From: the human T2T-CHM13v2.0 reference genome, Homo sapiens
Direction: 5' to 3' (one strand)
NCBI RefSeq assembly: GCF_009914755.1
Contig: NC_060939.1
DNA: 64,000 nucleotides
How positions within the stretch are numbered: the first letter of the stretch is position 1; the number at the start of each line of letters is the position of its first letter. The notes under the pieces were generated by a model that worked only from the letters and a program-made list of their open reading frames with translations, did not search any database and was not told the origin of the DNA. This document shows positions 921 through 61,785 of this stretch, in pieces. A program made the position numbers and the translations under genes.

Positions 921-1133
<213 letters not shown>

Positions 1134-5284: not shown

Positions 5285-5555
<271 letters not shown>

Positions 5556-8802: not shown

Positions 8803-8873
8803 CTCCGCCCTTTCCGCTGCTAGGCTGCGCCCGAGGCTATTTAAACCCACCCTGGCTGGCCTGTACTCAGATC
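8803..8873 (+). promoter_or_regulatory. Putative Pol II core promoter, copy 1 (GC box, TATA, Inr)
   Basis: ctccgccc at 8803-8810; TATTTAAA at 8838-8845; TCAGATC (YYANWYY) with its A at 8869, 31 nt after the first TATA base; locally CpG-rich. Confidence 0.7.
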
Positions 8874-8993
8874 TTCGCGGAGCGGATCAGCGGCAGGAGC
8901 GTTTGGCGGACTCTGCGTGGACTTGGAGCTCACAGCGTCTTGCGACTTGGAAGCGGGTTCAGAGGACAGGACAGAACACTTGGGCAAGTGAAT

Positions 8994-9146
8994 CTCTGTC
9001 TGTCTGTCTGTCTGTCTGTCTCATTGGTTGTTTGATTTCCATTTTCTTAAGGAGCACATACCTCACACCGCACACACACAAACACACACACGCACACACA
9101 CACGCACACGCACACGCACACACACGCACACACGCACACGCACACT
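8994..9146 (+). repeat. (TCTG)n and (CA)n/(CACG)n microsatellites in the leader or first intron (each unit)
   Basis: tctgtctgtctg at 8994-9021; cacacacaaacacacacacgcacacacacacgcacacg at 9063-9146. Confidence 0.95.
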
Positions 9147-9206
9147 CCTTCCTTCTGCGAGTTAGAACATTAGTAGGGGCCCCTGGGAGCTGCAGGTTTC
9201 CTAATC

Positions 9207-12188
9207 ATGTCTGCACCTAAGAACAGTAGGGTCTTGTCTGGCTCTTCTTATGAACGGTCCCCCAGCCCGGACTCCCCAAGGTCCATGCGAACCTCACCCA
9301 GCTTCCCCCTCTCCCCTCTCAGAAACTCAGGCTTAAGGGGAAGCTACTCACCAGGGATCCGGAGCTACCATTCACCATCCCCTAGGGCTTCACCACACTC
9401 ACCTCTGTCATCACCAGAATCCCACAAGCTCCCATTTCCCTGTCCTCACCGTGATGGGCAATCAACGAAGCCATTGGGCTCTCCCGTGTCCTCCTCTGAG
9501 GATTCCTCAGAGTCCCCACGTTCATCAATAATATACCACATGTTCTTACTGCCATCACCCAGCAGCTCACCCCCAGCTCTCGGGGGGTCTCCTGTGTCTC
9601 CCAGCTACTCTCCAAACAACCCCAGATTTCAGCTGCGGTCAGCCCCCCACACCCAGGAATCACCTACAAACTCACGAGCCTCACTTTGCTCCACCCCCGT
9701 GTCTTTCATCTCTTCACCCCCAGGCCTCAGGGACTCTCCTGTGGCCCCCAGTTACTCTCCAGCCATCCCCAGGTTCCTGCGGGAGTCAGCGCCATGTGCC
9801 CAGTAGTCCCCCAGAGACTCACAGGTCTCGGGAGATTATGAGCGGACCCCCAGCCCTGACTCCCCAAGATTCATGCCTGCCTCACCCAGCTTCTCCCTCT
9901 CCCCTCCCAGAAACTCAGACCCAAGGGGCAGCTCCTCACCAGGGGTGTGGAAGTGCTCTACATCATCCCGCAGGGCTTCACCACTCTCACATCCGTCATC
10001 AACAGAATTCCACAACTTTACGTTTCCCTTTCCTTACCAAGCAGGACAGTCACTCATGTCATTGTGTTCTCCCGTGACCTCCTCTGGAGACTCTTCACAG
10101 TCACCTCATTCATCAATAATATACCATATGTTCTTACTGCCATCATCCAGCAGCTCACCCCCAGCCACCCATGACTCTCCTGTCTGTCCCAGATACTCTC
10201 CAACTACGCCCAGATTTCAGCGGGAGTCTGTACCCCACACCCCAGAAACACCTACAAACTCACAGACCTCAGTGAGATCCTCGCCAGTCTCTCTGACGTC
10301 TTCACCCACAGCCTTTACGGACCCTCCAGTCTGTCCCAGCTACTCTCCAACCACGCCCACATTTCAGCGCGGGTCAGTTCCAGGAACCCAGGGATCACCA
10401 CCAAGCCCACCGCTTTCACTGAGTTACTCCCCAGTCTCTAGCACGTCTTTATCTCCAACCCTCAGGGACTCGCCTGTCTGTCCCAGCTACTCTCCAAACA
10501 CGCCCACACTTCAGCGGGAGTCCGTTGCAGGCACCCAGAAGTCACCACCAAACTCACCAATTTCACTGCGTTACTCCCCAGTCTCTCTCATGTCTTCACC
10601 ATCCCTCAGGGACTCTCCCGTCTGTCCCAGCTACTCTCCAACCACGCCCACATTTCAGCTGGAGTCAGTTCCAGGCACCCCGGAATCACCACCAAACTCA
10701 CCAATTTCACTCAGTTACTCCTCAGTCTCTGGCACGTCTTTATCTCCAACCCTCAGGGACTCTCCTGTGTGTCCCAGCTACTCTCCAACCACGCCCACAC
10801 TTCAGCGGGAGTCAGTTCCAGGCACCCAGGAATCACCACCAAACTCACCAATTTCACTCAATTACTCTCCAGTCTCTCTCGTGTCTTCACCAGCCCTCAG
10901 GGACTCTCCTGTCTGTCCCAGTTACTCTCCAACCACGCCCACATTTCAGCTGGAGTCAGTTCCAGGCACCCCGGAGTCACCACCAAACTCACCAGTTTCA
11001 CTCAGTTACTCCCCGGTCTCTCTCATGTCTTCACCCCCAGCCCTCAGGGACTCTCCTGTGTGTCCCAGCTACTCTCCAACCATGCCCAGATTTCAGCGGG
11101 AGTCTGTTCCAGGCACCCATGTATCACCACCAAACTCAGCAGTTTCACTGAGTTACTCCCCAGTCTCTCTCATGTCTTCACCCCCACACCCCTGGGACTC
11201 TCCTGTCTGTCCCAGCTACTCTCCCACCACGCCCAGATTTCAGCGGGAGTCAGCCTCCCACACTCCGGAATCAGATACAGACTCACAGACTTCACTGAGC
11301 TCCTCCCTGGTCTCTCTCAGGTCTTTGCCCTCATCCCACAGGGACTCTTGTGTCTCTTTCAGCTACTCTCAAAACTTCTCTAGATTCCAGCTGGAGTCAG
11401 TTCCAGGCACCCACGATACACCACCGAACTCACGAATTTCACTGACTTACTCCCCTGTCTCCCTCATGTTCTCACCCCCAGCCCTCAGGGACTCTTCTGT
11501 CTCTCTCAGCTACTCTCCAACCATCTCCAGATTTCACCTGGAGTCAGCTTCCCACACCCTGGAATCACCTGCAAACTCACGGACCTTACTGCAACCATCC
11601 CCCATTTCTTTCACCTCTTCACCCCCTGCCTTCAGGGACTCTCCTGGGTCTCCCAGCTTCTCTCCAGCCTTCCCCAGATTTCTGCCACAGCCAGCCCCAG
11701 GCACCCAGGACAACCCTAGACACTCACAGGCCTCACCAGACTATCTCCCTATGACCTTTACCTATACAGGGATGGCTCCCACGCATCCCTCAGTGACCCC
11801 AAACCCATCTCCACTTACACTCAGGCACTCCCAGGGCCTGACAGCTACTCCCCGTTATTGTCCTTCAGTTCGAAGCCCTGGCCAATCTACTAGCCCACAT
11901 GACGCAGTTACCTGGCCATTTCTCCACGGTTCCCGGGAGGGCCCCACACCCAGCCGCACAAGAGCCCCTCCTGCATTCCGTCCTCACACGCAGGCCTGTC
12001 CATCTACTTGCTACTGTCACACTCTTGCCAGCAGAAGAGGCCCCTGTAATGGCCGATATCACCACCCAGTCTATCCTCACCCCACAGCTGTGCAGCGGGA
12101 AGCCCCTGCTGGCCCACGTGGCTGCCACAGCCCATGCTGGCACGACGCTCCAGCAGGTCGGCGTCCCTGCGGGCCAAACTACCGGTGA
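9207..12188 (+). pseudogene. CTD-like Ser/Pro-rich repeat ORF, copy 1, disrupted by a nonsense codon
   Basis: Same length and frame as copy 2, but GAG>TAG at 9804-9806. The downstream in-frame ORF 9873..12188 (771 aa) stays open. Confidence 0.7.
10173..11745 (+). repeat. 144/147/150-bp satellite (ACRO1-like), ~11 monomers, inside ORF copy 1
   Basis: Recurring ctcagggactctcctgtctgtcccagctactctccaaccacgcccacatttcagctggagtcagttccaggcacc. Equivalent blocks at ~16489-18061, 22794-26094, 30794-33227, 37915-39913, 44625-46623, 51335-53914 and 58618-61342. Confidence 0.9.
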
Positions 12189-12397
12189 CATGTCTAGCGT
12201 GACCCTCCTTCCTGGCAGTGACACTGTTGATGTGAACCCCAATTTCACATCTGTCATTTGTAAATAGGACCATTTTCCCTTTTCGCTCTCCCTTCCATTC
12301 ACAGGGCTTTTCATTTTCTCTGTTACTGCCTCCGTTTCAGATATTTACTCACCTTTTTCTCTCTCACTATGTCTGCCGTGGGCTCCATGAGAGTGCG

Positions 12398-12735
12398 CCA
12401 CATAAGATTCCCCCATTAAAAGTCATGAATTGAGTGGCTTTTAGTATACCTGTGGTTGTGTACATTCAAATTTAATTCGCAATTCATTGTAGAACGTCTT
12501 ATCACTCCCGGCCAGAGAAAAACCCTGTAGACATTAGTCACTCCTCATTCTGTCTCAAACCCTCTCCCTGACCCTCAGCCCTAGGTAGCAACTACCTAGT
12601 GCGATCAATCCCATATGCATAGATTACCATATTGTGGACATTTCCTATAAGCGGAATTGCACAATAGGTGAGCTGTTATGACTGACATAACACGTAGCAC
12701 AATATTTTCAAGATTCGTCCACATTGTAGGCTTAC
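12398..12735 (-). mobile_element. L1MB-type 3' end fragment (each unit; truncated to 6210-6440 in unit 1)
   Basis: cataagattcccccattaaaag..aattgagtggcttttagtata..atcactccc..aaaccctgta..cattagtcactcctcattc..cagccctagg..ggacatttc.tataa..ggaat..tttcaagattc.tccac. Confidence 0.75.
12415..12420 (+). terminator. Candidate poly(A) signal ATTAAA ~230 nt after the ORF stop (all units)
   Basis: ccccATTAAAagtcatg followed by GT-rich cctgtggttgtg; lies at the edge of an antisense L1 fragment. Confidence 0.4.
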
Positions 12736-15110: not shown

Positions 15111-15181
15111 CTCCGCCCTTTCCGCTGCTAGGCTGCGCCCGAGGCTATTTAAACCCACCCTGGCTGGCCTGTACTCAGATC
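15111..15181 (+). promoter_or_regulatory. Putative core promoter, copy 2
   Basis: GC box, TATTTAAA at 15146, Inr TCAGATC. Confidence 0.7.
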
Positions 15182-15302
15182 TTCGCGGAGCGGATCAGCG
15201 GCAGGAGCGTTTGGCGGACTCTGTGTGGACTTGGAGCTCACAGCGTCTTGCGACTTGGAAGCGGGTTCAGAGGACAGGACAGAACACTTGGGCAAGTGAA
15301 TC

Positions 15303-15337
<35 letters not shown>

Positions 15338-15522
15338 CATTGGTTGGTTGATTTCCATTTTCTTAAGGGGCACATACCTCACACCGCACACACACAAACA
15401 CACACACGCACACACACACGCACACGCACACGCACACACACGCACACACGCACACGCACACTCCTTCCTTCTGCGAGTTAGAACATTAGTAGGGGCCCCT
15501 GGGAGCTGCAGGTTTCCTAATC

Positions 15523-18504
15523 ATGTCTGCACCTAAGAACAGTAGGGTCTTGTCTGGCTCTTCTTATGAACGGTCCCCCAGCCCGGACTCCCCAAGGTCC
15601 ATGCGAACCTCACCCAGCTTCCCCCTCTCCCCTCTCAGAAACTCAGGCTTAAGGGGAAGCTCCTCACCAGGGATCCGGAGCTACCATTCACCATCCCCTA
15701 GGGCTTCACCACACTCACCTCTGTCATCACCAGAATCCCACAAGCTCCCATTTCCCTGTCCTCACCGTGATGGGCAATCAACGAAGCCATTGGGCTCTCC
15801 CGTGTCCTCCTCTGAGGATTCCTCAGAGTCCCCACGTTCATCAATAATATACCACATGTTCTTACTGCCATCACCCAGCAGCTCACCCCCAGCTCTCGGG
15901 GGGTCTCCTGTGTCTCCCAGCTACTCTCCAAACAACCCCAGATTTCAGCTGCGGTCAGCCCCCCACACCCAGGAATCACCTACAAACTCACGAGCCTCAC
16001 TTTGCTCCACCCCCGTGTCTTTCATCTCTTCACCCCCAGGCCTCAGGGACTCTCCTGTGGCCCCCAGTTACTCTCCAGCCATCCCCAGGTTCCTGCGGGA
16101 GTCAGCCCCATGCGCCCAGGAGTCCCCCAGAGACTCACAGGTCTCGGGAGATTATGAGCGGTCCCCCAGCCCTGACTCCTCAAGATTCATGCCTTCCTCA
16201 CCCAGCTTCTCCCTCTACCCTCCCAGAAACTCAGACCCAAGGGGCAGCTCCTCACCAGGGATGTGGAAGTCCTCTACATCATCCCGCAGGGCTTCACCAC
16301 TCTCACATCCGTCATCAACAGAACTCCACAACTTTACGTTTCCCATTCCTAACCAAGCAGGACAGTCACTCATGTCATTGTGTTCTCCCGTGACCTCCTC
16401 TGGAGATTCTTCACAGTCACCTCATTCATCAATAATATACCATATGTTCTTACTGCCATCATCCAGCAGCTCACCCCCAGCCACCCATGACTCTCCTGTC
16501 TGTCCCAGCTACTCTCCAACTACGCCCAGATTTCAGCGGGAGTCTGTACCCCACACCCCAGAAACACCTACAAACTCACAGACCTCAGTGAGATCCTCGC
16601 CAGTCTCTCTCACGTCTTCACCCCCAGCCCTTACGGACCCTCCAGTCTGTCCCAGCTACTCTCCAACCACGCCCACATTTCAGCGCGGGTCAGTTCCAGG
16701 AACCCAGGGATCACCACCAAGCCCACCGCTTTCACTGAGTTACTCCCCAGTCTCTAGCACGTCTTTATCTCCAACCCTCATGGACTCGCCTGTCTGTCCC
16801 AGCTACTCTCCAAACACGCCCACACTTCAGCGGGAGTCCGTTGCAGGCACCCAGAAGTCACCACCAAACTCACCAATTTCACCGCGTTACTCCCCAGTCT
16901 CTCTCATGTCTTCACCATCCCTCAGGGACTCTCCCGTCTGTCCCAGCTACTCTCCAACCACGCCCACATTTCAGCTGGAGTCAGTTCCAGGCACCCCGGA
17001 ATCACCACCAAACTCACCAATTTCACTCAGTTACTCCTCAGTCTCTAGCACGTCTTTATCGCCAACCCTCAGGGACTCTCCTGTGTGTCCCAGCTACTCT
17101 CCAACCAAGCCCACACTTCAGCGGGCGTCAGTTCCAGGCACCCAGGAATCACCACCAAACTCACCAATTTCACTCAATTACTCTCCAGTCTCTCTCGTGT
17201 CTTCACCAGCCCTCAGGGACTCTCCTGTCTGTCCCAGTTACTCTCCAACCACGCCCACATTTCAGCTGGAGTCAGTTCCAGGCACCCCGGAGTCACCACC
17301 AAACTCACCAGTTTCACTCAGTTACTCCCCGGTCTCTCTCACGTCTTCACCCCCAGCCCTCAGGGACTCTCCTGTGTGTCCCAGCTACTCTCCAACCATG
17401 CCCAGATTTCAGCGGGAGTCTGTTCCAGGCACCCATGTATCACCACCAAACTCAGCAGTTTCACTGAGTTACTCCCCAGTCTCTCTCATGTCTTCACCCC
17501 CACACCCCTGGGACTCTCCTGTCTGTCCCAGCTACTCTCCCACCACGCCCAGATTTCAGCGGGAGTCAGCCTCCCACACTCCGGAATCAGATACAGACTC
17601 ACAGACTTCACTGAGCTCCTCCCTGGTCTCTCTCAGGTCTTTGCCCTCATCCCACAGGGACTCTTGTGTCTCTTTCAGCTACTCTCAAAACTTCTCTAGA
17701 TTCCAGCTGGAGTCAGTTCCAGGCACCCACGATACACCACCGAACTCACGAATTTCACTGACTTACTCCCCTGTCTCCCTCATGTTCTCACCCCCAGCCC
17801 TCAGGGACTCTTCTGTCTCTCTCAGCTACTCTCCAACCATCTCCAGATTTCACCTGGAGTCAGCTTCCCACACCCTGGAATCACCTGCAAACTCACGGAC
17901 CTTACTGCAACCATCCCCCATTTCTTTCACCTCTTCATCCCCTGCCTTCAGGGACTCTCCTGGGTCTCCCAGCTTCTCTCCAGCCTTCCCCAGATTTCTG
18001 CCACAGCCAGCCCCAGGCACCCAGCACAACCCTAGACACTCACAGGCCTCACCAGACTATCTCCCTATGACCTGTACCTATACAGGGATGGCTCCCACGC
18101 ATCCCTCAGTGACCCCAAACCCATCTCCACTTACACTCAGGCACTCCCAGGGCCTGACAGCTACTCCCCGTTATTGTCCTTCAGTTCGAAGCCCTGGCCA
18201 ATCTACTAGCCCACATGACGCAGTTACCTGGCCATTTCTCCACGGTTCCCGGGAGGGCCCCACACCCAGCCGCACAAGAGCCCCTCCTGCATTCCATCCT
18301 CACACGCAGGCCTGTCCATCTACTTGCTACTGTCACACTCTTGCCAGCAGAAGAGGCCCCTGTAATGGCCGATATCACCACCCAGTCTATCCTCACCCCA
18401 CAGCTGTGCAGCGGGAAGCCCCTGCTGGCCCACGTGGCTGCCACAGCCCATGCTGGCACGACGCTCCAGCAGGTCGGCGTCCCTGCGGGCCAAACTACCG
18501 GTGA
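15523..18504 (+). CDS. Putative Pol II CTD-like Ser/Pro-rich repeat protein, copy 2 (993 aa, intact)
   Basis: Uninterrupted ATG-to-TGA ORF; atcATG has A at -3; YSPTTP/YSPVS heptads; Cys/His/Arg-rich C-terminus. Translation unproven. Confidence 0.55.
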   Translation: MSAPKNSRVLSGSSYERSPSPDSPRSMRTSPSFPLSPLRNSGLRGSSSPGIRSYHSPSPRASPHSPLSSPESHKLPFPCPHRDGQSTKPLGSPVSSSEDSSESPRSSIIYHMFLLPSPSSSPPALGGSPVSPSYSPNNPRFQLRSAPHTQESPTNSRASLCSTPVSFISSPPGLRDSPVAPSYSPAIPRFLRESAPCAQESPRDSQVSGDYERSPSPDSSRFMPSSPSFSLYPPRNSDPRGSSSPGMWKSSTSSRRASPLSHPSSTELHNFTFPIPNQAGQSLMSLCSPVTSSGDSSQSPHSSIIYHMFLLPSSSSSPPATHDSPVCPSYSPTTPRFQRESVPHTPETPTNSQTSVRSSPVSLTSSPPALTDPPVCPSYSPTTPTFQRGSVPGTQGSPPSPPLSLSYSPVSSTSLSPTLMDSPVCPSYSPNTPTLQRESVAGTQKSPPNSPISPRYSPVSLMSSPSLRDSPVCPSYSPTTPTFQLESVPGTPESPPNSPISLSYSSVSSTSLSPTLRDSPVCPSYSPTKPTLQRASVPGTQESPPNSPISLNYSPVSLVSSPALRDSPVCPSYSPTTPTFQLESVPGTPESPPNSPVSLSYSPVSLTSSPPALRDSPVCPSYSPTMPRFQRESVPGTHVSPPNSAVSLSYSPVSLMSSPPHPWDSPVCPSYSPTTPRFQRESASHTPESDTDSQTSLSSSLVSLRSLPSSHRDSCVSFSYSQNFSRFQLESVPGTHDTPPNSRISLTYSPVSLMFSPPALRDSSVSLSYSPTISRFHLESASHTLESPANSRTLLQPSPISFTSSSPAFRDSPGSPSFSPAFPRFLPQPAPGTQHNPRHSQASPDYLPMTCTYTGMAPTHPSVTPNPSPLTLRHSQGLTATPRYCPSVRSPGQSTSPHDAVTWPFLHGSREGPTPSRTRAPPAFHPHTQACPSTCYCHTLASRRGPCNGRYHHPVYPHPTAVQREAPAGPRGCHSPCWHDAPAGRRPCGPNYR

Positions 18505-21419: not shown

Positions 21420-21490
21420 CTCCGCCCTTTCCGCTGCTAGGCTGCGCCCGAGGCTATTTAAACCCACCCTGGCTGGCCTGTACTCAGATG
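21420..21490 (+). promoter_or_regulatory. Putative core promoter, copy 3
   Basis: GC box, TATTTAAA at 21455; Inr variant TCAGATG. Confidence 0.65.
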
Positions 21491-21827
21491 TTCGCGGAGC
21501 GGATCAGCGGCCGGAGCGTTTGGCGGACTCTGCGTGGACTCGGAGCTCACAGCGTCTTGCGACTTGGAAGCGGGTTCAGAGGACAGGACAGAACACTTGG
21601 GCAAGTGAATCTCTGTCTGTCTCTCTGTCTGACTGTCTGTCCCATTGGTTGGTTGATTTCCATTTTCTTAAGGGGCACATTCCTCACACCGCACACACAC
21701 AAACACACACACGCACACACACACGCACACGCACACACACGCACACGCACACACACGCACACACACTCGTTCCTTCAGCGAGTTAGAACATTAGTAGGGG
21801 CCCCTGGGAGCTGCAGGTTTCCTAAAC

Positions 21828-43272: not shown

Positions 43273-43343
43273 CTCCGCCCTTTCCGCTGCGAGGCTGCGC
43301 CCGAGGCTATTTAAACCCACCCTGGCTGGCCTGTACTCAGATC
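43273..43343 (+). promoter_or_regulatory. Putative core promoter, copy 6
   Basis: GC box, TATTTAAA at 43308, Inr. Confidence 0.7.
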
Positions 43344-49982: not shown

Positions 49983-50053
49983 CTCCGCCCTTTCCGCTGC
50001 GAGGCTGCGCCCGAGGCTATTTAAACCCACCCTGGCTGGCCTGTACTCAGATC
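49983..50053 (+). promoter_or_regulatory. Putative core promoter, copy 7
   Basis: GC box, TATTTAAA at 50018, Inr. Confidence 0.7.
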
Positions 50054-50368
50054 TTCGCAGAGCGGAGCAGCGGCCGGAGCGTTTGGCGGACTCTGCGTGG
50101 ACTTGGAGCTCACAGCGTCTTGCGACTTGGAAGCGGATTCAGAGGACAGGACAGAACACTTGGGCAAGTGAATCTCTGTCTGTCTGTCTGTCTCATTGGT
50201 TGGCTTATTTCCATTTTCTTAAGGAGCACATACCTCACACCACACACACACAAACACACACACACACACGCACGCACGCACGCACACACACACGCACACA
50301 CACACACTAATTCATTCTGCGGGTTAGGAAATTAGTAGGGGTCTCTGGGAGCTGCAGGTTTCCTAATC

Positions 50369-53300: not shown

Positions 53301-54357
53301 AAACTCAGCAGTTTCACTGAGTTACTCCCCAGTCTCTCTCATGTCTTCACCCCCAGCCCCCTGGGACTCTCCTGTCTGTCCCAGCTCCTCTCCCAACACG
53401 CCCAGATTTCAGAGGGAGTCAGCCTCCCACACTCCGGAATCACCTACAGACTCACAGACTTCACGGAGGTCCTCCCTGGTCTCTCTCAGGTCTTTGCCCT
53501 CAGCCCACAGGGACTCTTGTGTCTCTTTCAGCTACTCTCGAAACTTCTCTAGATTCCAGCTGGACTCAGTTCCAGGCACCCACGACACACCACCAAACTC
53601 ACGAATTTCACTGACTTACTCCCCAGTCTCTCTCATATTCTCACCCCCAGCCCTCAGGGACTCTTCTGTCTCTCTCAGCTACTCTCCAGCCATCTCCACA
53701 TCACACCTGGGGTCAGCTTCCCACACCCAGGAATCACCTACAAACTCACGGACCTTACTGCAACCCTCCCCCATTTCTTTCACCTCTTCACCCCCTGCTT
53801 TCAGGGACTCTCCTGTGTCTCCCAGCTTCTCTCCAGCCTTCCCCAGATTTCTGTCACACTCAGCCCCAGGCACCCAGGGTTACCCTGGACACTCACAGGC
53901 CTCACGAGACTATTTCCCAATGACTTGTATCTATAGAGGGATGGCTCCCATACTTCCCTCAGTGACCTCAAACCCATCTCCACTTACACTCAGACACTCC
54001 CAGGGCCTGACAGCTACTCCCCGTTATTGTCCTTCAGCTCGAAGCCCTGGCCCATCTACTAGCCAACATGATGCAGCTACCTGGCCATGTCTCCACATTT
54101 CTGGGGAGGGCCCCACACCCAGCCGCAGAAGAGCCCCTCCTGCATTCCGTCCTCACACACAGGCCTGTCCATCCACTTGCTACTGTCACACTCTTGCCAG
54201 CAGAAGAGGCCCCTGTAATGGCCGATATCACCGCCCAGTCTATCCTCACCCCACAGCTGTGCAGCGGGACCCTCCTGCTGGCCCACGTGGCTGCCACAGC
54301 CCATGCTGGCACGACGCTCCAGCATGTCGGCGTCCCTGCGGGCCACGCTACCGCTGA
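50369..54357 (+). pseudogene. CTD-like repeat ORF, copy 7, with a 1-bp frameshift (1329 aa if repaired)
   Basis: cccacaTTcagctgg at 52241-52255 versus cccacaTTTcagctgg in other monomers. The frame switch is visible in ORFs 50369..52606 and 51583..54357. Confidence 0.65.
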
Positions 54358-57265
54358 CATGGCTAGCATCACCCTCCTTCCTGGCAGTGACACTGCTGAT
54401 TTGAACCCCAGTTTCACAGCTGTCATTTGTAAATAGGACCATTTTCCCTTTTCTCTCTCCCTTCCATTCACAGGGCTTCTCATTCCCTCTGTTTCTGCCT
54501 CCGTTTCAGAGATTTACTCACCTTTTTCTCTCTCACTATGTCTGCCGTGGTCTCCATAAGAGTGTGCCACATAAAATTGCCCCATTAAAAGTCATGAATT
54601 GAGTGGATTTTAGTATACCTGTGGTTGTGCACATTCAATTTTAATTCGCAATCCATTTTAGAAGGTTTTATCACCCCCGACCAGAGAAACACCCTGTGGA
54701 CATTAGTCACTCCTCATTCTGTCTCAAACCCTCTCCCTGACCCTCAGCCCTAGGTAACAACTGCATAGAGCGATCAACCCCATATGCATAGATTTCCATA
54801 TTGTGGACATTTCCTATAAACGGAATTGCACAATACGTGAGCTTTTGTGACTGACATAACACTTTTAGCACAATATTTTCAAGATTCATCCACATTGCAG
54901 CCTTACCCACAGGGGGAAACCGCATTTTGTGGTTTCAGTAACACCGGGTGTTTTCTCCTTCCTTCCGTCTTTCCTTCCTTCCTTCCTTCCTTCCTTCCTT
55001 CCTTCCTTCCTTCCTTCCTTCCTTCCTCCCTTCCTCCCATTTCTCTCTTATTCCTTCTGCCCTCTCTCTTTCATATGCCTTAGGTGCATCCTACGTCCTG
55101 CGTCTTTTTGGGGAATCCTCGACAGGTGCTGGAAAACTGTGTTATTGTAATTATTTACCGGTATCTCTCTTTCATGGTTCTCCATCAGTTGTAAGCATCT
55201 ATTGGTTTATCCCAGGTCACTAAGTATATTTTAATTAGCTACACCTGTTTTTCTTTATACACCTGTTTCTGGAGTATAGGGTCGCATACTCATAAACCCA
55301 GTGTAACTCAGAAACGCATCTAATATTCCAATAGACCCATCATAACGTTGAAAAATCATAAATCAAACCAACTTAAGTCACGATTTGGCGCTGGATATGG
55401 GCTCCATCAATTCCATTGTATTCAATAATGCTGTACACCATTAACAATGGCAGACTGATTGGGCGTGGATGTGGATAACATTATAAAAATCAGTTATTAG
55501 AGGGATACTTTAACCTGACGGAAGAGCTGATCTAATGGTATTAGTACAGTGATGATTATGTGAGATGTTTTGAGACAGAGTAGTACATTTGTGTATGAGA
55601 TTCTGTGGCTTTTTTCACTTAGTAGGAACCTTTGTGTGTGGAAAACTGAGAAAATTGCTTTGTGCTGTAGAGTCTGGCATTCGTTGTAGATTAAAGCTTA
55701 TTTTTCTGGAAGTAAATCTTATTCAATAAAATACTACTCTTTATAATAAAAAACAAAGACACTGGTGATGTGAAGTCATTATCCTCAGCAAACTAATCCA
55801 GGAACAGAAAACCAAACGCCACATTCTCACTTATAATGGGAGCTGAAAAATGGGATCATGTGGACACAGGAAGGGGAACAACACACACTGGGGCCTTTCG
55901 GGAGGCAGAGCGTTAAGAAAAACAGCTACCGCATGCTGGGCTTAATACCTAGGTGATGGGTTGACAGGTGCAGCAAACCACCGTGGCACACGTTTACCTT
56001 AGTAACAAATCTGCACAGCCTGCCCATATATTGCAGAACTTAGAAACGAAACGAAAGCAAAGAAAACGAGAAAGCGATAGCAAAACGCTAACTGCGAAAC
56101 AGAGTTTCAAACTGAGAAAGTGAGAGACCAATGTTTGGTTCAAATCATGGTTCTCAACCCAGGTGCCATAAGGTCAGGATAAAGAATTTGATGACGTATT
56201 GTAAATAAGACATGCAGCGGAGGACCAGAAAAATCGTTCTCAACATACGTGTGGCTTCGAGTTCAACGGTGACACTATGTACAGTGACATAGCATTAGAT
56301 TCCAAAGGGCCGAGTCCCGCAAGACTGGCCTCCCACACTAATAATAATGGGAAGCGCTACGTTGCTTTACCTGTGCTTCTCAGCAACTGGCTATAAATCA
56401 GGTTTCCACCACTCCCAGTTTTAGTTGCATTCATTTGCTGGAAGAGCTCACAGCACGCAGGGAAACACTGACATTTCCCATTTTTTGTATTTTAGCAGAT
56501 ATTGCAAAAACTTCAGAAAAAACTTTTGGGCCCGGCATGTGGGGAGGGGCTCACTGCCTTCCAGGAAGTGTTATCCAGAAGCTCTCTAAACCCAGTCCTT
56601 TTGGGTTTTTATGGAGACCTCATTCTATAGGCATGATGGGTTAAACCATAGGCTATTGGTGATCAACTCAACCTGGGGCTCTCAACCCTCCCTGGAAATT
56701 GGGGTTGAGGCTTTGCCATTCTCAGTCTGAGTAAAAGAATTTACGCAAACGGAATTTTAAAACAGATTAGCATATCTGGAAACTTAACTAGATGACGGAA
56801 TTATCTGGAGCCACACCTTGATATTCCTAACCCGAGCACCCTCATCCAACGAATGCTCCACCCAACTGGCTCCCAAGTCTCTACGGGGTTCCAGAGCAAA
56901 AGAATGTTTATACAACGCATATCTCCACCTTTTCTTCAAAGTCTTTTCGCTTACACGGAAAGACTTCTTCAACTGCCATGCATCAGGGTCAGGGGGAGGT
57001 CTTGTTACAACACAGATCTGCGGATCTCCGGGGTTTGATTGTGGCAAGGATGCTGCTGGTGTCAAAACCACAACGTGGGAACCACAGAACCACTAGTTGG
57101 TTTTCAGTGTTTCAGTGCATACAATTCCTAATATATCTGGCCAAGAAAACTTGTAAGTTCTTAGATTGTCCCAAAGGTGGCGCATGAAATCAAATCAGGA
57201 GAACAGTTTCCTACGAGGTGTAGCCTGGGAACCTTGGGGGTGACTGATGGAAAGGAGGAGTGAAG

Positions 57266-57336
57266 CTCCGCCCTTTCCGCTGCGAGGCTGCGCCCGAGGC
57301 TATTTAAACCCACCCTGGCTGGCCTGTACTCAGATC
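57266..57336 (+). promoter_or_regulatory. Putative core promoter, copy 8
   Basis: GC box, TATTTAAA at 57301, Inr. Confidence 0.7.
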
Positions 57337-57651
57337 TTCGCAGAGCGGAGCAGCGGCCGGAGCGTTTGGCGGACTCTGCGTGGACTTGGAGCTCACAGCG
57401 TCTTGCGACTTGGAAGCGGATTCAGAGGACAGGACAGAACACTTGGGCAAGTGAATCTCTGTCTGTCTGTCTGTCTCATTGGTTGGTTTATTTCCATTTT
57501 CTTAAGGAGCACATACCTCACACCACACACACACAAACACACACACACACACGCACGCACGCACGCACACACACACGCACACACACACACTAATTCATTC
57601 TGCGGGTTAGGAAATTAGTAGGGGTCTCTGGGAGCTGCAGGTTTCCTAATC

Positions 57652-60600
57652 ATGTCTGCACCTAAGAACACTAGGGTCTTGTCTGGCTCTTCTTATGAAC
57701 GGTCCCCCAGCCCGGACTCCCCAAGATCCATGCTAGCCTCACCCAGCTTCTCCCTCTCCCCTCTCAGAAACTCAGACTTAAGAGGAAGCTCCTCACCAGG
57801 GATCCGGAGCTACCATTCACCATCCCCTAGGGCTTCACCACACTCACCTCTGTCATCACCAGTATCCCACAATCTCCCATTTGCCTGTCCTCTCCGTGAT
57901 GGGCAATCAATGAAGCCATTGGGCTCTCCCGTGTCCTCCTCTGAGGATTCTTCAGAGTCACCACGTTTATCAGTAATATACCACATGTTCCTACTGCCAT
58001 CACCCAGCAGCTCACCCCCAGCTGCTTGGGAGTCTCCTGGGTCTCCCAGCTACTCTCCAAACAACCCCAGATTTCAGCTGGAGTCAGCCCCCCACACCCA
58101 GGAATCACCTGCAAACTCACGAGCCTCACGGTGCTCCTCCCCTATGTCTTTCATCTCTTCACCCCCAGGCCTCAGGGACTCTCCTGTGGCTCCCAGTTAC
58201 TCTCAAGCCATCCCCATGTTCCTGCGGGAGTCAGCCCCATGCACTCAGGAGTCCCCCAGAGACTCACAGGTCTCGGGAGAATATGAGCGGTCCCCCAGCC
58301 CTGACTCCTCAAGATTCATGCCTGCCTCACCCAGCATCTACCTCTCCCCTCCCAGGAACTCAGACCCAAGGGGCAGCTCCTCACAAGGGATGTGGAAGTA
58401 CTCTACATCATCCCGCAGGGCTTCACCACTCTCACATCCGTCATCGGCAGAATTCCACAACTTTACATTTCCCTTTCCTAACCAAGCAGGACAATCACTC
58501 ATGTCATTGTGTTCTCCCGTGTCCTCCTCTGGAGATTCCTCACAGTCACCCCATTCATCAATAATATACCATGTGTTCTTACTGCCATCATCCAGCAGCT
58601 CACCCCCAGCCACCAATGACTCTCCTGTCTGTCCCAGCTACTCTCCAACTACGCCCAGATTTCAGCGGGCGTCGGTATCCAACACCCCAGAAACACCTAC
58701 AAACTCACAGACCTCAGTGAGATCCTCGCCAGTCTCTCTCACGTCTTCACCCCCAGGCCTTACGGACCCTCCAGTCTCTCCCAGCTACTATCCAACCACG
58801 CGCACATTTCAGCGCGGGTCAGATCCAGGAACCCAGGGATCACCAGCAAGCCCACCACTTTCACTGTGTTACTCCCCAGTCTCAAGCACGTCTTTATCTC
58901 CAACCCTCAGGGACTCTCCTGTCTGTCCCAGCTATTCTCCAACCACGCCCACGTTTCAGCGGGAGTCCGTTGCAGGCACCCAGCAATCACCAGCAAACTC
59001 ACCAATTTCACTGCGTTACTCCCCAGTCTCTCTCATGTCTTCACCAGCCCTGAGGGACTCTCCCGTCTGTCCCAGCTACTCTCCAACAACACCCACATTT
59101 CAGCTGGAGTCCGTTCGAGGCACCCCGGAGTCACCACCAAACTCACCAATTACACTCAATTACTCTCCAGTCTCTCTCATGTCTTCACCAGCCCTCAGGG
59201 ACTATCACGTCTGTCCCAGCTACTCTCCAACCACCCCCAGATTTCAGCTGGAAGCAGTTCCTTGCTCCCCGGAATCAACACCAAACTCACCAATTTCACT
59301 CAATTACTCTCCAGTCTCTCTCATGTCTTCACCAGCCCCCAGGGACTCTCCCATCTGTCCCAGCTACTCTCCAACCACGCCCAGATTTCAGCTGGAAGCA
59401 GTTCCTTGCACCCAGGAATCACCACCAAACTCACCAATTTCACTCAATTACTCCCCAGTCTCTCTCATGTCTTCACCATCCCTCAGGGACTCTCCCGTCT
59501 GTCTCAGCTACTCTCCAACCACGCCCACATTTCAGCTGGAGAACCTTCGAGGCACCCCGGAGTCACCACCAAACTCACCAATTTCACTCAATTACTCTCC
59601 AGTCTCTCTCATGTCTTCACCAGCCCTCAGGGACTCTCCCGACTGTCCCAGCTACTCTCCAACAACGCCCAGATTTCAGCTGAAAGCAGTTCCTTGCTCC
59701 CGAGAATCAACACCAAACTCACCAATTTCACTCAATTACTCTCCAGTCTCTCTCATGTCTTCACCAGCCATCAGGGACTCTCCCGTCTGTCCCAGCTACT
59801 CTCCAAAGACGCCCACATTTCAGCTGGAGTCTGTTCCAGGCACCCTGGAGTCACCACCAAACTCACCAATTTCACTCAATTACTCTCCAGTCTCTCTCAT
59901 GTCTTCACCAGCCCTCAGGGACCCTCCTGTCTGTCCCAGCTACTCTCCAACCACGCCCAGATTTCAGCTGGAAGCAGTTCCTTGCACCCCAGAATCACCA
60001 CCAAACTCACCAATTTCACTCAATTACTCTCTAGTCTCTCTCATGTCTTCACCAGCCCTCAGGGACCCTCCTGTCTGTCCCAGCTACTCTCCAAGCACCC
60101 CCAGATTTCAGCTGGAGTCAGTTCCAGGCACCCCGGAGTCACCACCAAACTCACCAGTTTCACTGAGTTACTCCCCGGTCTCTCTCATGTCTTCACCGCC
60201 AGCCCTCAGGGACTCTCCTGTGTGTCCCAGCTACTCTCCAACCACGCCCACATTTCAGCTGGAGTCAGTTCCAGGCACCCCGGAGTCACCACCAAACTCA
60301 CCAATTTCACTCAATTACTCTCCAGTCTCTCTCATGTCTTCACCAGCCCTCAGGGACTCTCCTGTCTGTCCCAGCTACTCTCCAACCACGCCCAGATTTC
60401 AGCTGGAAGCAGTTCCTTGCACCCCAGAATCACCTCCAAACTCACCAATTTCACTCAATTACTCTCTAGTCTCTCTCATGTCTTCACCAGTCCTCAGGGA
60501 CCCTCCTGTCTGTCCCAGCTACTCTCCAACCACGCCCAGATTTCAGTTGGAGTCAGTTCCAGGCACCGCGGAGTCACCACCAAACTCACCAGTTTCACTG

Positions 60601-61785
60601 AGTTACTCCCCGTTCTCTCTCATGTCTTCACCGCCAGCCCTCAGGGACTCTCCTGTTTGTCCCCGCTACTCTCCAACCACGCCCACATTCCAGCTGGAGT
60701 CACTTGCAGGCACCCAGGAATTACCTACAAACTCAGCAGTTTCACTGAGTTACTCCCCAGTCTCTCTCATGTCTTCACCCCCAGCCCCCTGGGACTCTCC
60801 TGTCTGTCCCAGCTCCTCTCCCAACACGCCCAGATTTCAGAGGGAGTCAGCCTCCCACACTCCGGAATCACCTACAGACTCACAGACTTCACGGAGGTCC
60901 TCCCTGGTCTCTCTCAGGTCTTTGCCCTCAGCCCACAGGGACTCTTGTGTCTCTTTCAGCTACTCTCGAAACTTCTCTAGATTCCAGCTGGACTCAGTTC
61001 CAGGCACCCACGACACACCACCAAACTCACGAATTTCACTGACTTACTCCCCAGTCTCTCTCATATTCTCACCCCCAGCCCTCAGGGACTCTTCTGTCTC
61101 TCTCAGCTACTCTCCAGCCATCTCCACATCACACCTGGGGTCAGCTTCCCACACCCAGGAATCACCTACAAACTCACGGACCTTACTGCAACCCTCCCCC
61201 ATTTCTTTCACCTCTTCACCCCCTGCTTTCAGGGACTCTCCTGTGTCTCCCAGCTTCTCTCCAGCCTTCCCCAGATTTCTGTCACACTCAGCCCCAGGCA
61301 CCCAGGGTTACCCTGGACACTCACAGGCCTCACGAGACTATTTCCCAATGACTTGTATCTATAGAGGGATGGCTCCCATACTTCCCTCAGTGACCTCAAA
61401 CCCATCTCCACTTACACTCAGACACTCCCAGGGCCTGACAGCTACTCCCCGTTATTGTCCTTCAGCTCGAAGCCCTGGCCCATCTACTAGCCAACATGAT
61501 GCAGCTACCTGGCCATGTCTCCACATTTCTGGGGAGGGCCCCACACCCAGCCGCAGAAGAGCCCCTCCTGCATTCCGTCCTCACACACAGGCCTGTCCAT
61601 CCACTTGCTACTGTCACACTCTTGCCAGCAGAAGAGGCCCCTGTAATGGCCGATATCACCGCCCAGTCTATCCTCACCCCACAGCTGTGCAGCGGGACCC
61701 TCCTGCTGGCCCACGTGGCTGCCACAGCCCATGCTGGCACGACGCTCCAGCATGTCGGCGTCCCTGCGGGCCACGCTACCGGTGA
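57652..61785 (+). CDS. Putative CTD-like repeat protein, copy 8 (1377 aa, intact)
   Basis: Open 4.1-kb frame with conserved start and stop. Confidence 0.55.
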   Translation: MSAPKNTRVLSGSSYERSPSPDSPRSMLASPSFSLSPLRNSDLRGSSSPGIRSYHSPSPRASPHSPLSSPVSHNLPFACPLRDGQSMKPLGSPVSSSEDSSESPRLSVIYHMFLLPSPSSSPPAAWESPGSPSYSPNNPRFQLESAPHTQESPANSRASRCSSPMSFISSPPGLRDSPVAPSYSQAIPMFLRESAPCTQESPRDSQVSGEYERSPSPDSSRFMPASPSIYLSPPRNSDPRGSSSQGMWKYSTSSRRASPLSHPSSAEFHNFTFPFPNQAGQSLMSLCSPVSSSGDSSQSPHSSIIYHVFLLPSSSSSPPATNDSPVCPSYSPTTPRFQRASVSNTPETPTNSQTSVRSSPVSLTSSPPGLTDPPVSPSYYPTTRTFQRGSDPGTQGSPASPPLSLCYSPVSSTSLSPTLRDSPVCPSYSPTTPTFQRESVAGTQQSPANSPISLRYSPVSLMSSPALRDSPVCPSYSPTTPTFQLESVRGTPESPPNSPITLNYSPVSLMSSPALRDYHVCPSYSPTTPRFQLEAVPCSPESTPNSPISLNYSPVSLMSSPAPRDSPICPSYSPTTPRFQLEAVPCTQESPPNSPISLNYSPVSLMSSPSLRDSPVCLSYSPTTPTFQLENLRGTPESPPNSPISLNYSPVSLMSSPALRDSPDCPSYSPTTPRFQLKAVPCSRESTPNSPISLNYSPVSLMSSPAIRDSPVCPSYSPKTPTFQLESVPGTLESPPNSPISLNYSPVSLMSSPALRDPPVCPSYSPTTPRFQLEAVPCTPESPPNSPISLNYSLVSLMSSPALRDPPVCPSYSPSTPRFQLESVPGTPESPPNSPVSLSYSPVSLMSSPPALRDSPVCPSYSPTTPTFQLESVPGTPESPPNSPISLNYSPVSLMSSPALRDSPVCPSYSPTTPRFQLEAVPCTPESPPNSPISLNYSLVSLMSSPVLRDPPVCPSYSPTTPRFQLESVPGTAESPPNSPVSLSYSPFSLMSSPPALRDSPVCPRYSPTTPTFQLESLAGTQELPTNSAVSLSYSPVSLMSSPPAPWDSPVCPSSSPNTPRFQRESASHTPESPTDSQTSRRSSLVSLRSLPSAHRDSCVSFSYSRNFSRFQLDSVPGTHDTPPNSRISLTYSPVSLIFSPPALRDSSVSLSYSPAISTSHLGSASHTQESPTNSRTLLQPSPISFTSSPPAFRDSPVSPSFSPAFPRFLSHSAPGTQGYPGHSQASRDYFPMTCIYRGMAPILPSVTSNPSPLTLRHSQGLTATPRYCPSARSPGPSTSQHDAATWPCLHISGEGPTPSRRRAPPAFRPHTQACPSTCYCHTLASRRGPCNGRYHRPVYPHPTAVQRDPPAGPRGCHSPCWHDAPACRRPCGPRYR

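What the first reader, a model, noticed from the sequence alone, without database searches (positions are those of the whole stretch)
8803..61785. Tandem multicopy gene family hidden in satellite DNA, encoding RNA Pol II CTD-like proteins
Seen: each of 8 units has GC box/TATA/Inr, an ATG with A at -3, a 3.0-4.7 kb ORF passing through the satellite, a shared stop and a downstream ATTAAA. Six of eight ORFs are intact despite many substitutions between subtypes. The product is a low-complexity Ser/Pro/Thr/Tyr protein with dozens of YSP motifs (PSYSPTTP, NYSPVS). Known: the POLR2A/RPB1 CTD is tandem YSPTSPS, includes variants such as YSPTTPK, is phosphorylated by CDK7/CDK9/CDK12, and binds capping, splicing and 3'-end factors. 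Inference: these may be free-standing CTD mimics (kinase or reader decoys, or condensate scaffolds), amplified like other macrosatellite-borne genes (DUX4 in D4Z4, USP17 in RS447) and overlooked because of repeat masking.
Basis: partly seen in the sequence, partly recalled or inferred. Interest (0 to 1): 0.93.

Follow-up and report, generated by a model that had tools for sequence, protein, structure and literature searches.

The report
ACRO satellite hides CTD-like gene family
Each unit of the known ACRO1 repeat arrays on human acrocentric chromosome arms is a gene-shaped cassette with a long open reading frame for a protein resembling the tail of RNA polymerase II, apparently inherited from an older mammalian gene, but whether it is still translated is unproven.

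Summary
The window holds 8 units (6.3-8.0 kb) of the known ACRO1 composite macrosatellite (ACRE / ACRO_Comp). Each carries CTCCGCCC, TATTTAAA, an Inr-like CTCAGAT, an ATG with A at -3, an ORF, a shared TGA, and ATTAAA at +227. Six ORFs are intact (993-1569 aa). Unit 1 has a TAG; unit 7 has a 1-bp deletion.

Much is already in print. The CTD likeness of translated ACRO1 is in Boots 2020. [quoted passage not shown] A December 2025 preprint gives one sentence calling it a "putative protein coding gene".

New here:
- The 49-aa monomer is seven CTD-register heptads. Their similarity sits at codon positions 1-2, not 3, which is a coding signature.
- Nonsense variants are about 3-fold depleted in the ORF frame only.
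- An old in-frame internal duplication gives omega about 0.67.
- 123 of 150 scored genomic copies keep frames of at least 950 aa, while dispersed copies are broken.
- Homologous predicted proteins exist in marmoset, Old World monkeys and rabbit, plus single-repeat forms from unnamed species. The family is therefore not primate-specific.

Against a working protein: recent amino-acid evolution is near neutral (omega 0.8-0.93). No translation evidence exists. Sense ACRO1 RNA is reported to block Pol II elongation.

My odds: derived from a real coding gene 0.9, still translated 0.45, CTD decoy 0.12.

The parts
6210..9206 (+). First, 5'-truncated spacer of the ACRO composite array (array boundary at about 6210). 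It overlaps the last exon of the annotated ZNF195-like pseudogene.
   Evidence: blastn of the unit-5 spacer: positions 314-3302 match 6210-9206 at 91%.
8803..12420 (+). Unit 1 cassette (type A): GC box 8803, TATTTAAA 8838, Inr 8866, ATG 9207, TAG nonsense 9804-9806, internal-ATG ORF 9873-12188, ATTAAA 12415.
15111..18736 (+). Unit 2 cassette (type A): promoter motifs 15111/15146/15174, intact ORF 15523-18504 (993 aa), ATTAAA 18731.
21420..26769 (+). Unit 3 cassette (type-A spacer joined to a type-B-like ORF): intact ORF 21828-26537 (1569 aa), ATTAAA 26764. It has one upstream ATG in the 5'UTR.
29442..33902 (+). Unit 4 cassette (type B): intact ORF 29828-33670 (1280 aa).
36563..40588 (+). Unit 5 cassette (type B): intact ORF 36949-40356 (1135 aa). 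Head1 occupies codons 1-125, an old ACRO1 dimer lies at about 37308-37581, head2 follows, the main array is 37915-39876, and the tail is 39877-40356.
43273..47298 (+). Unit 6 cassette (type B): ORF 43659-47066, identical to the unit 5 ORF. The whole 6710-bp units differ at 2 bases.
49983..54589 (+). Unit 7 cassette (type B): the ORF is split (50369-52606 and 52327-54357) by a 1-bp deletion in the 143-bp monomer starting at 52205.
57266..62017 (+). Unit 8 cassette (type B): intact ORF 57652-61785 (1377 aa), ATTAAA 62012. The array runs on past the window end.
22794..26057 (+). Longest main ACRO1 array (about 22 monomers of 144/147 bp, in frame). The arrays of the other units are 10170-11712, 16486-18028, 30794-33190, 37915-39876, 44625-46586, 51335-53877 and 58618-61305.
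   Evidence: 127 monomer spacings: 59 of 144 bp, 67 of 147 bp, 1 of 143 bp
8330..8340 (-). TAATCCAATCA, a match to the DUX4 consensus as I recall it, about 870 bp upstream of the ATG. It recurs at 14638-14648 and 20947-20957 (type-A spacers only). It is absent from type-B spacers even with 1 mismatch allowed.
   Evidence: 3 matches against 0.62 expected, but they are one site repeated

Best explanation
What it is. This is the known ACRO1 satellite inside the 6-8 kb ACRO composite macrosatellite (ACRE / ACRO_Comp).

Shown:
- Each unit is a complete intronless gene cassette: GC box, TATTTAAA, Inr, a 5'UTR of about 320-350 nt, ATG, an ORF of 993-1569 codons, TGA, and ATTAAA.
- The ORF is a true reading frame, not a by-product of composition.
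- The family has a head of about 125 aa, a 48/49-aa unit built of seven CTD-register heptads, and a basic Cys/His-rich tail of about 160 aa.
- Related predicted proteins with only one such unit exist in other mammals.

Inferred history. In primates the internal unit expanded in frame into the ACRO1 satellite. The head plus two units was duplicated in frame before the human-marmoset split. The whole gene was then amplified into arrays on the acrocentric arms.

Inferred working. The arrays are silent in soma. [quoted passage not shown] The sense mRNA is translated into a basic, disordered protein of 105-170 kDa with 100-180 Ser/Thr-Pro sites in CTD register. Selection keeps the frame open and the composition, not the individual residues. 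A role as competitor or scaffold for CTD kinases and CTD readers is speculation.

Odds: coding origin 0.9; translated in human embryos 0.45; CTD decoy 0.12.
For: Cassette motifs are present in 8 of 8 units. The core promoter is conserved in 9 of 9 copies compared, including the old dispersed ones. The 5'UTR has no upstream ATG in 7 of 8 units.

Heptad structure:
- Identity at lag 7 is 17 of 49; 0 of 20000 shuffles reached this.
- [ST]P sites fall in heptad phases 2,2,5,2,5,2,2,2.
- DNA identity at lags 21/42/63 is .55/.53/.57 at codon position 1 and .51/.45/.45 at position 2, but .31/.22/.20 at position 3. Control lags give .21/.33/.26.

Nonsense-creating variants in the ORF frame:
- Monomers: 2 seen against 7.8 expected.
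- 5' part (N5, 47 copies): 4 seen against 9.8 expected.
- Combined P = 0.0013.
- The off-frames show 10 against 12.8 and 10 against 10.0.

Internal duplication. Head1 versus head2 gives omega .67-.68 in frame, against .86-1.43 off frame (Fisher P = .042). There are only 4 gap columns at 25% nucleotide divergence.

Census. 123 of 150 scored copies (308 candidates) have open frames of at least 950 aa. Intact ORFs are present on chr3 and chr22.

Homologs:
- Marmoset P0058: 832 aa, collinear, 66% identity over 593 aa with 5 gaps.
- Rabbit P0057: 35% identity over 563 aa, E = 6e-37.
- Single-repeat forms P0066, P0082 and P0062 share the tail motif CPSTxYCHTLA.RR.
- Lag-7 periodicity is present in all five homologs tested.

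Literature. I read passages only, in PMC6545021, PMC8990217, PMC11467316 and PMC5832720. These report expression at the 4-cell stage, expression after DUX4, and hypomethylation in the male germline.
Against: - Type A versus type B gives omega .82 (5' part) and .81 (tail), no lower than the off-frames. Differences are spread evenly over codon positions: 19/18/17.
- Unique-variant omega is about .93 in monomers and about 1 in the 5' part.
- SP-motif codons are not significantly protected today (25 of 68 against 108 of 233, P = .17).
- The 5' part is broken in 6 of 45 array copies.
- A neutral simulation leaves both subtypes stop-free in head plus tail 4-11% of the time.
- The lack of indels in head and tail also holds in broken dispersed copies, so it is partly intrinsic.
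- The monomer test is partly circular, because the window was flagged for having open frames.
- The other species' proteins are pipeline models whose DNA I could not see.
- RefSeq has no gene model here (hub note).
- Boots 2020 found no stable transcript in HeLa. They also found that 1.1-1.4 kb of sense ACRO1 nearly abolishes a reporter RNA.
- The searches turned up no printed translation or proteomic evidence.
Confidence: 0.45

Rival explanations
1. Relic ORF. The frame descends from a once-coding gene but is no longer translated. What matters now, if anything, is the RNA or the chromatin. The RNA may act as a Pol II-binding aptamer that stops its own transcription. The arrays may be a nucleolus-associated satellite transcribed at genome activation. 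The frame stays open because the strand is G-poor, the period is a multiple of 3, and the arrays are young and homogenised.
For: - Recent omega is .8-1.0 and indistinguishable from the off-frames.
- Broken copies sit inside arrays: 6 of 45 in the 5' part, plus units 1 and 7 here.
- Units within an array are 99-100% identical, so intactness of many copies is not independent evidence.
- The satellite is also nearly open in the other + frames, with 1-9 stops per 1.5-3.3 kb.
- The POLR2A CTD exon itself is open for 425 aa in a wrong frame.
- Boots 2020 report SELEX enrichment (1029 sense against 1 antisense mappings) and cis-silencing by sense ACRO1.
- PMC12767296 points to a nucleolar association.
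Against: - Nonsense variants are depleted only in the ORF frame (P = .0013).
- An 832-aa collinear marmoset model and a 575-aa rabbit model exist.
- The old internal duplication gives omega .67 without frameshifts.
- The tail motif is conserved across proteins that are only 33-47% identical overall.
- The promoter, the 5'UTR free of upstream ATGs, and the poly(A) signal are kept in every unit.
Confidence: 0.4
2. Chance ORF. A stop-free 147-bp monomer was amplified, and the flanks happen to be open. There was never a coding history.
For: - A 49-codon monomer is open by composition with P = .27.
- A period that is a multiple of 3 keeps any such frame open along an array.
Against: - Head plus monomer plus tail is open with P = 1.3e-4 by composition.
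- The heptad similarity is confined to codon positions 1-2.
- Homologous proteins in the same frame exist in rabbit and other mammals.
- Nonsense depletion is specific to the ORF frame.
Confidence: 0.03
3. Origin rival (compatible with either function): the repeat was copied from POLR2A's CTD-coding sequence, as Boots 2020 suggested, rather than arising in an unrelated orphan gene.
For: - All 13 PDB sequences matched at E <= 10 are RPB1 CTDs, with E from 8e-9 to 2.9e-4.
- Composition-adjusted BLASTP gives E = 8e-8, with 37.5-42.5% identity to the distal CTD.
- The S2-P3 / S5-P6 register is the same.
Against: - DNA similarity to the CTD exon is weak: at best 69.6% over 92 bp, E = 1e-5.
- Head and tail match nothing in RPB1.
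- Single-repeat homologs in other mammals carry only about 2 good heptads.
- The family predates primates, contrary to the 'very recent acquisition' idea.
Confidence: 0.15

Closest known systems
ACRO1 satellite / ACRE (Boots 2020, PMC7714431) / ACRO_Comp (Hoyt et al. preprint 10.1101/2021.07.12.451456) / 'ACRO' composite (PMC12767296)
   Same: - A 147-bp monomer.
- A higher-order unit of about 6 kb holding one long and one short ACRO1 array.
- Arrays on acrocentric short arms, plus chr3, 4, 1, 2, 19 and 20.
- A translated monomer about half identical to CTD heptads.

It is the same object.
   Different: In the passages I read, print treats it as a satellite plus TE fragments (ACRO1, L1PA10, MER21B, L1MB8) and calls it primate-specific. 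[quoted passage not shown]

I did not find the following in print: the full ATG-to-stop cassette, the ORF census, the codon-phase signature, the head and tail domains, and the non-primate homologs.
C-terminal domain of RNA polymerase II subunit RPB1 (Pfam PF05001)
   Same: - Period of seven residues.
- Ser/Thr-Pro at heptad positions 2-3 and 5-6.
- YSPTTP-type heptads.
- 37-42% identity to the distal human CTD.
   Different: - No polymerase body.
- Tyr1 in only 2 of 7 heptads.
- One heptad (FQLESVP) is fully degenerate.
- A 48/49-aa super-period.
- Its own head and Cys/His-rich tail.
- The Pfam model is not matched.
Macrosatellite-embedded intronless genes such as DUX4 in D4Z4 (PMC12776069 introduction; USP17/RS447 from recall)
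   Same: - One ORF with its own promoter per tandem unit of several kb.
- Heterochromatic and methylated in soma.
- RNA appears at embryonic genome activation.
- Copy number varies between people (PMC12746033).
   Different: - Here the ORF itself contains a satellite and codes for a low-complexity protein.
- There are at least 300 copies on many chromosomes.
- No protein has been demonstrated.
- There is no RefSeq model in this window.
Coding minisatellites (mucin- or involucrin-type internal repeats; recalled, not tested)
   Same: In-frame expansion of an internal repeat whose length is a multiple of 3. The repeat number varies between copies (10 to 22 monomers here).
   Different: Here the whole gene was then amplified as a macrosatellite. 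The repeat unit has an internal heptad substructure.
Pol II-binding RNA aptamers (RAPs) of Boots 2020
   Same: Same strand and same sequence. The sense ACRO1 RNA is what would be the mRNA.
   Different: That reading needs no translation. It predicts self-limiting transcription through the array, which would work against making full-length mRNA.

Membership tests
ACRO1 satellite / ACRO composite | Tandem monomers of about 147 bp | tested here: met
   TRF periods are 147 and 144. Of 127 monomer spacings, 67 are 147 bp, 59 are 144 bp and 1 is 143 bp.
ACRO1 satellite / ACRO composite | Higher-order unit of about 6 kb with a long (1.3-2.4 kb) and a short (256 bp) ACRO1 array (Boots 2020, passage) | tested here: met
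   Units are 6305-8000 bp. Main arrays are 1.5-3.3 kb. Positions 360-633 of the 5' part match ACRO1 at 75-80%.
ACRO1 satellite / ACRO composite | Arrays on acrocentric short arms | tested here: met
   The window is on chr15p (hub note). Copies lie on chr13, 14, 15, 21 and 22 at low coordinates, and also on chr3, 4, 1, 2, 19 and 20.
ACRO1 satellite / ACRO composite | Match to the Dfam/Repbase ACRO1 consensus | not testable with these tools
   No repeat library is on hand. The identification rests on the printed descriptions.
RPB1 CTD heptad repeat (PF05001) | Match to the Pfam model RNA_pol_Rpb1_R | tested here: not met
   There was no hit at E <= 10 for the 1569-aa ORF. In the genome-wide scan only POLR2A (chr17), a chr16 locus and a chr1 locus matched, among 150 scored of 629 candidates.
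RPB1 CTD heptad repeat (PF05001) | Seven-residue period with S2-P3 and S5-P6 | tested here: met
   Lag-7 identity is 17 of 49. [ST]P sites fall only in phases 2 and 5. 22 of 49 positions match the YSPTSPS register, against a shuffle maximum of 20.
RPB1 CTD heptad repeat (PF05001) | Tyr at position 1 of most heptads | tested here: not met
   2 of 7 heptads in the consensus monomer have it.
RPB1 CTD heptad repeat (PF05001) | Attached to the RPB1 polymerase body | tested here: not met
   PDB matches cover only the CTD residues of RPB1 and only the repeat part of the ORF. Head and tail have no Pfam or PDB match.
Functional protein-coding gene | Frame kept open across diverged copies and species | tested here: met
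   Types A and B, 5.6-8.1% apart, are both open. 123 of 150 copies have frames of at least 950 aa. Marmoset and rabbit models exist. Caveats: the arrays are homogenised and the models are predictions.
Functional protein-coding gene | dN/dS below 1 | tested here: inconclusive
   Recent comparisons give .81-.93, like the off-frames. The old internal duplication gives .67, P = .042.
Functional protein-coding gene | Depletion of nonsense variants | tested here: met
   6 seen against 17.65 expected in frame, P = .0013. The off-frames are not depleted. The test is partly circular for the window's own monomers.
Functional protein-coding gene | Sense mRNA and protein observed | not testable with these tools
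   The passages I read report ACRO1 RNA in embryos and DUX4-expressing cells, without strand or extent. No protein evidence was found.
Macrosatellite-embedded gene (D4Z4/DUX4 type) | One promoter-ORF-poly(A) cassette per tandem unit | tested here: met
   Present in 8 of 8 units, as sequence motifs only.

The most novel reading that the evidence does not exclude
Hundreds of ACRO gene copies on the nucleolus-organising chromosome arms fire together at human genome activation. They make a large, basic, free-standing CTD-like protein with 100-180 Ser/Thr-Pro sites. This protein titrates or concentrates CTD kinases, phosphatases, prolyl isomerases and CTD readers, or seeds a condensate near nucleoli. 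In that way it would tune the first wave of Pol II transcription. The same RNA also binds Pol II, so RNA and protein would act on the same enzyme.
Probability: 0.12. Interest if true: 0.9.

Novelty: new member of a known kind. Interest (0 to 1): 0.55.

Why it matters
ACRO is described as the repeat class most specific to great-ape acrocentric arms after rDNA (PMC12767296, passage). Its RNA peaks at the 4-cell stage.

If the arrays are an amplified gene and not just a satellite, several things follow:
- A multicopy human gene family is missing from annotation.
- ACRO copy-number changes seen between generations (PMC12746033) become gene-dosage changes.
- Antibodies against the Pol II CTD could cross-react in embryos and in DUX4-expressing (FSHD) cells.
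- The 'primate-specific' label needs correcting.

Even if the frame is a relic, the case shows how a coding minisatellite can become a chromosome-scale satellite.

Tried and rejected
1. IGFL origin. P0050 fuses an IGFL domain (PF14653) to an ACRE-like head and three repeats. The human IGFL hits lie only at chr19:48.87-49.09 Mb. The two IGFL loci I fetched hold no ACRO-like DNA or protein match. I keep this as a lead only.

2. A separate single-copy human ortholog. P0066 searched against the genome finds only ACRE copies, at 46-48% identity (114 of 1505 candidates scored).

3. DUX4 sites as an explanation of induction. There is an exact motif only in the three type-A spacers, and none in type B even with 1 mismatch. 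The motif was typed from recall.

4. Indel depletion as proof of coding. There are no indels in head plus tail, against 13-17 events in the spacers. The same holds in broken dispersed copies, and the spacer indels cluster in a few windows.

5. 21-bp periodicity in bulk DNA is only borderline.403 against a shuffle 95th percentile of .389 and 99th of .417. The signal appears only when split by codon position.

6. Spacer ORFs. 14 of 34 ORFs of at least 45 aa were scanned and none has a Pfam domain. I could not confirm the printed L1/MER21B content.

7. The tail searched against the PDB gave nothing (best E = .52).

8. The ESM Atlas gave no usable hit.

9. Rfam finds nothing inside the units.

12. 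Hendrickson 2017 is not held. I know it only through papers that cite it.

Full report
THE OBSERVATION

The window holds an array that starts at about 6210 and runs past 64000. It is made of units of 6305-8000 bp. Each unit contains a tandem array of 144- or 147-bp monomers. Of 127 monomer spacings, 59 are 144 bp, 67 are 147 bp and 1 is 143 bp.

Nine ATG-ORFs of at least 400 aa lie on the + strand. They share the start MSAPKN... and the end ...CGP(R/N)YR*. Six units are intact, at 993, 1569, 1280, 1135, 1135 and 1377 aa. Unit 1 has TAG at 9804-9806 where unit 2 has GAG. Unit 7 carries one 143-bp monomer at 52205.

All 8 units carry the same signals:
- CTCCGCCC;
- TATTTAAA 35 bp later;
- CTCAGAT 28 bp after that;
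- an ATG with A at -3;
- TGA;
- ATTAAA 227 bp after the stop.

The 5'UTR of about 320-350 nt has no ATG in 7 of 8 units.

The ORF frame has no internal stops. The other + frames have 7-17 and the minus frames 36-142. Outside the satellite, the 963-bp 5' part has 0 stops against 4-5 and 8-9 in the off-frames. The 477-bp tail has 0 against 3 and 4. Composition alone would leave a founder of 333 codons open with P = 1.3e-4. In 1000 Markov resamples the longest frame was 540 aa.

WHAT IT IS

It is the ACRO1 satellite within the composite repeat called ACRE (Boots 2020, PMC7714431; passages). The same repeat is called ACRO_Comp in the Hoyt et al. preprint (passages) and ACRO in PMC12767296 (passages).

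Already in print:
- Boots 2020 state that the translated 147-bp consensus is identical to CTD heptads at 23 of 49 positions. They report that ACRO1 RNA binds Pol II, and that sense ACRO1 inserts block elongation in cis.
- ACRO1 RNA peaks at the 4-cell stage (PMC6545021).
- It rises after DUX4 expression (PMC8990217, PMC11467316 and PMC12776069, all citing Hendrickson 2017, which I could not read).
- It is hypomethylated in the male germline (PMC5832720).
[quoted passage not shown] 2020)'. It also reports copy-number changes between generations.

I found no printed account of the full cassette, of ORF integrity, or of selection.

ANATOMY OF THE ORF

The 5' non-array part (966 bp) is itself an in-frame duplication with an offset of 588 bp. 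It runs: head1 (about 125 aa), two old ACRO1-like units, head2, then the main array. A tail of 159 aa follows; it is basic and rich in Cys and His.

The four predicted proteins analysed (units 2, 3, 5, 8) are 106-168 kDa, with pI 8.5-9.1. They hold 101-182 [ST]P sites and only 4-6 Lys.

No Pfam family matches the ORF, head or tail. The tail has no relative in the PDB.

THE CTD LIKENESS IS REAL BUT IS NOT MEMBERSHIP

All 13 PDB sequences matched at E <= 10 are RPB1 CTDs, with E from 8e-9 to 2.9e-4 and a large bias term.

Against the genome's own POLR2A CTD exon (L041):
- Composition-adjusted BLASTP gives E = 8e-8, with 37.5-42.5% identity over 127-144 aa.
- The uncorrected score is 248 bits. 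100 shuffles gave 93 +/- 8.6, with a maximum of 116.

The consensus monomer reads as seven heptads: DSPVCPS YSPTTPR FQLESVP GTPESPP NSPISLN YSPVSLM SSPPALR. Lag-7 identity is 17 of 49; 0 of 20000 shuffles reached that. [ST]P sites fall only in heptad phases 2 and 5. 22 of 49 positions equal YSPTSPS in register, against a shuffle maximum of 20.

Against membership:
- Pfam PF05001 is not matched.
- Tyr1 is kept in only 2 of 7 heptads.
- Nothing else of RPB1 is present.

WAS IT EVER CODING? YES, VERY LIKELY

Codon-phase signature. The seven heptads are similar at codon positions 1 and 2 but not at position 3:

| Codon position | Identity at lags 21/42/63 | Control lags |
|---|---|---|
| 1 | .55/.53/.57 | .21 |
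| 2 | .51/.45/.45 | .33 |
| 3 | .31/.22/.20 | .26 |

Neutral DNA repeats would decay alike at all three positions.

Internal duplication. It is older than the human-marmoset split, since marmoset P0058 has it too. It gives omega .67-.68 in frame, against 1.27-1.43 and .86-.92 off frame (Fisher P = .042). There are only 4 gap columns at about 25% nucleotide divergence.

Homologs, found:
- Models named 'RPB1-like' exist in Piliocolobus and Papio (P0008, P0010).
- Marmoset P0058 has 832 aa and the same start. It is 66% identical over 593 aa with 5 gaps.
- Rabbit P0057 has 575 aa, 49-aa repeats and the tail. It is 35% identical over 563 aa, E = 6e-37.
- P0066, P0082 and P0062, from unnamed species, have head, one unit and tail, with the tail block CPSTxYCHTLA.RR..NGR kept.
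- Lag-7 periodicity is present in all five tested: z = 17 for human, 5.0, 2.9, 3.6 and 2.3 for the others.

So the family is not primate-specific, contrary to the passages. P0066 has no better human match than the ACRE copies themselves.

IS IT STILL UNDER SELECTION IN HUMANS? MIXED

For:
- Among 72 distinct monomers, 196 of 441 possible single-base variants are present. Of the 19 that would create a stop in frame, only 2 are present against 7.8 expected. Neither is a stop in its real context.
- Among 47 copies of the 5' part (24 distinct), 4 stop-creating variants are present against 9.8 expected.
- Together that is 6 against 17.65, P = .0013. The off-frames show 10 against 12.8 and 10 against 10.0.
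- Genome-wide, 123 of 150 scored copies (of 308 candidates) have open frames of at least 950 aa around the tail. Only 2 of 150 have a stop inside the tail.
- Copies on chr3 and chr22 are intact at 993 and 945 aa.
- Old dispersed copies are broken, as pseudogenes of a family would be. These are on chr19, chr4, chr2:132.7 Mb and chr20, and carry 2-7 stops or a frameshift.

Against:
- Missense change looks neutral. Types A and B, 5.6-8.1% apart, give omega .82 and .81, like the off-frames, with differences 19/18/17 by codon position.
- Variant counts in the ORF frame match expectation:

| Region | Nonsynonymous (seen / expected) | Synonymous (seen / expected) |
|---|---|---|
| Monomers | 133 / 132 | 61 / 56 |
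| 5' part | 160 / 157 | 65 / 62 |

- SP-motif codons are not protected (P = .17).
- 6 of 45 array copies of the 5' part are broken.
- A neutral simulation leaves head plus tail stop-free in both subtypes 4-11% of the time.
- The indel deficit also holds in broken copies.
- Arrays are 99-100% homogeneous, so the copies are not independent.
- The monomer test is partly circular, because the window was chosen for its open frames.

MECHANISM

Shown: a gene-shaped cassette in every unit; a reading frame with a coding history; family-level depletion of nonsense changes.

Inferred: translation into a large, basic, Ser/Thr-Pro-rich protein whose composition and length, not exact residues, are what selection sees.

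Speculative: action as a CTD decoy or scaffold.

The main rival is that the frame is a relic and the RNA, or the chromatin, is what acts. Boots' finding that 1.1-1.4 kb of sense ACRO1 nearly abolishes a reporter RNA argues that full-length mRNA would be scarce. They also report that transcripts which are completed are stable.

VERDICT

The object and its CTD likeness are known. The gene-family reading is barely in print and is strengthened here. The protein's existence and role remain open.

Noticed in passing
window 2537-2621 (+) and 950-1097 (-): Rfam matches in the left flank: a mir-571 precursor (93.8 bits) and an SRP/Alu-like element. Nothing from Rfam lies inside the ACRO units.
   Followed up: no
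window 5401-7301 versus 6210-9206: The last exon of the annotated ZNF195-like pseudogene runs about 1.1 kb into the first ACRO spacer, which starts at 6210. The model may be chimeric, or the spacer may share sequence with a ZNF 3' end. Other dispersed ACRE copies lie at chr19:47.23-47.28 Mb.
   Followed up: no
window 18505-26537: Unit 3 is a hybrid. Its upstream spacer is type A (1.35% from the spacer upstream of unit 2, 8.05% from type B). Its tail is type B (0.4% against 8.1%). Its 5' ORF part is intermediate (3.0% against 4.15%). This marks an A/B recombination junction in the array.
   Followed up: partly
window 36949-50368: Units 5 and 6 differ at 2 of 6710 bases, and their ORFs are identical.
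   Followed up: yes
protein P0050 (database, unnamed species): A 381-aa model joins an IGFL domain (PF14653, E = 2.6e-37) to an ACRE-like head and three repeats. The ancestral gene may lie next to an IGFL gene in that species. Two human IGFL loci show no trace of this.
   Followed up: partly
L031 (G000 chr2:161739833-161740909): A solitary copy keeps an in-frame 358-aa ORF (head, two old units, tail) but lacks the main array. It is 98% identical to type B over the first 360 bp. This looks like a recent dispersed copy with an in-frame deletion.
   Followed up: partly
L041 (G000 chr17:7416901-7419900): The POLR2A CTD exon is open for 425 aa in a wrong frame as well. C-rich heptad repeats therefore keep off-frames open, which is a caution for any ORF argument in such DNA.
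   Followed up: no
database proteins P0006, P0013: Near-identical ACRO ORF pieces are deposited as Plasmodium ovale wallikeri proteins ('RPB1, partial', 'PIR Superfamily Protein'). Many unnamed short-contig proteins match too. This fits the human contamination described in PMC6581058.
   Followed up: no
window 36755-36890 and the same place in each unit: The putative 5'UTR holds a (CTGT)n run and a (CA)n/(GCAC)n microsatellite just upstream of the ATG. A translated CA-repeat run-in is also seen in P0045, so the 5'UTR layout seems to be conserved.
   Followed up: no
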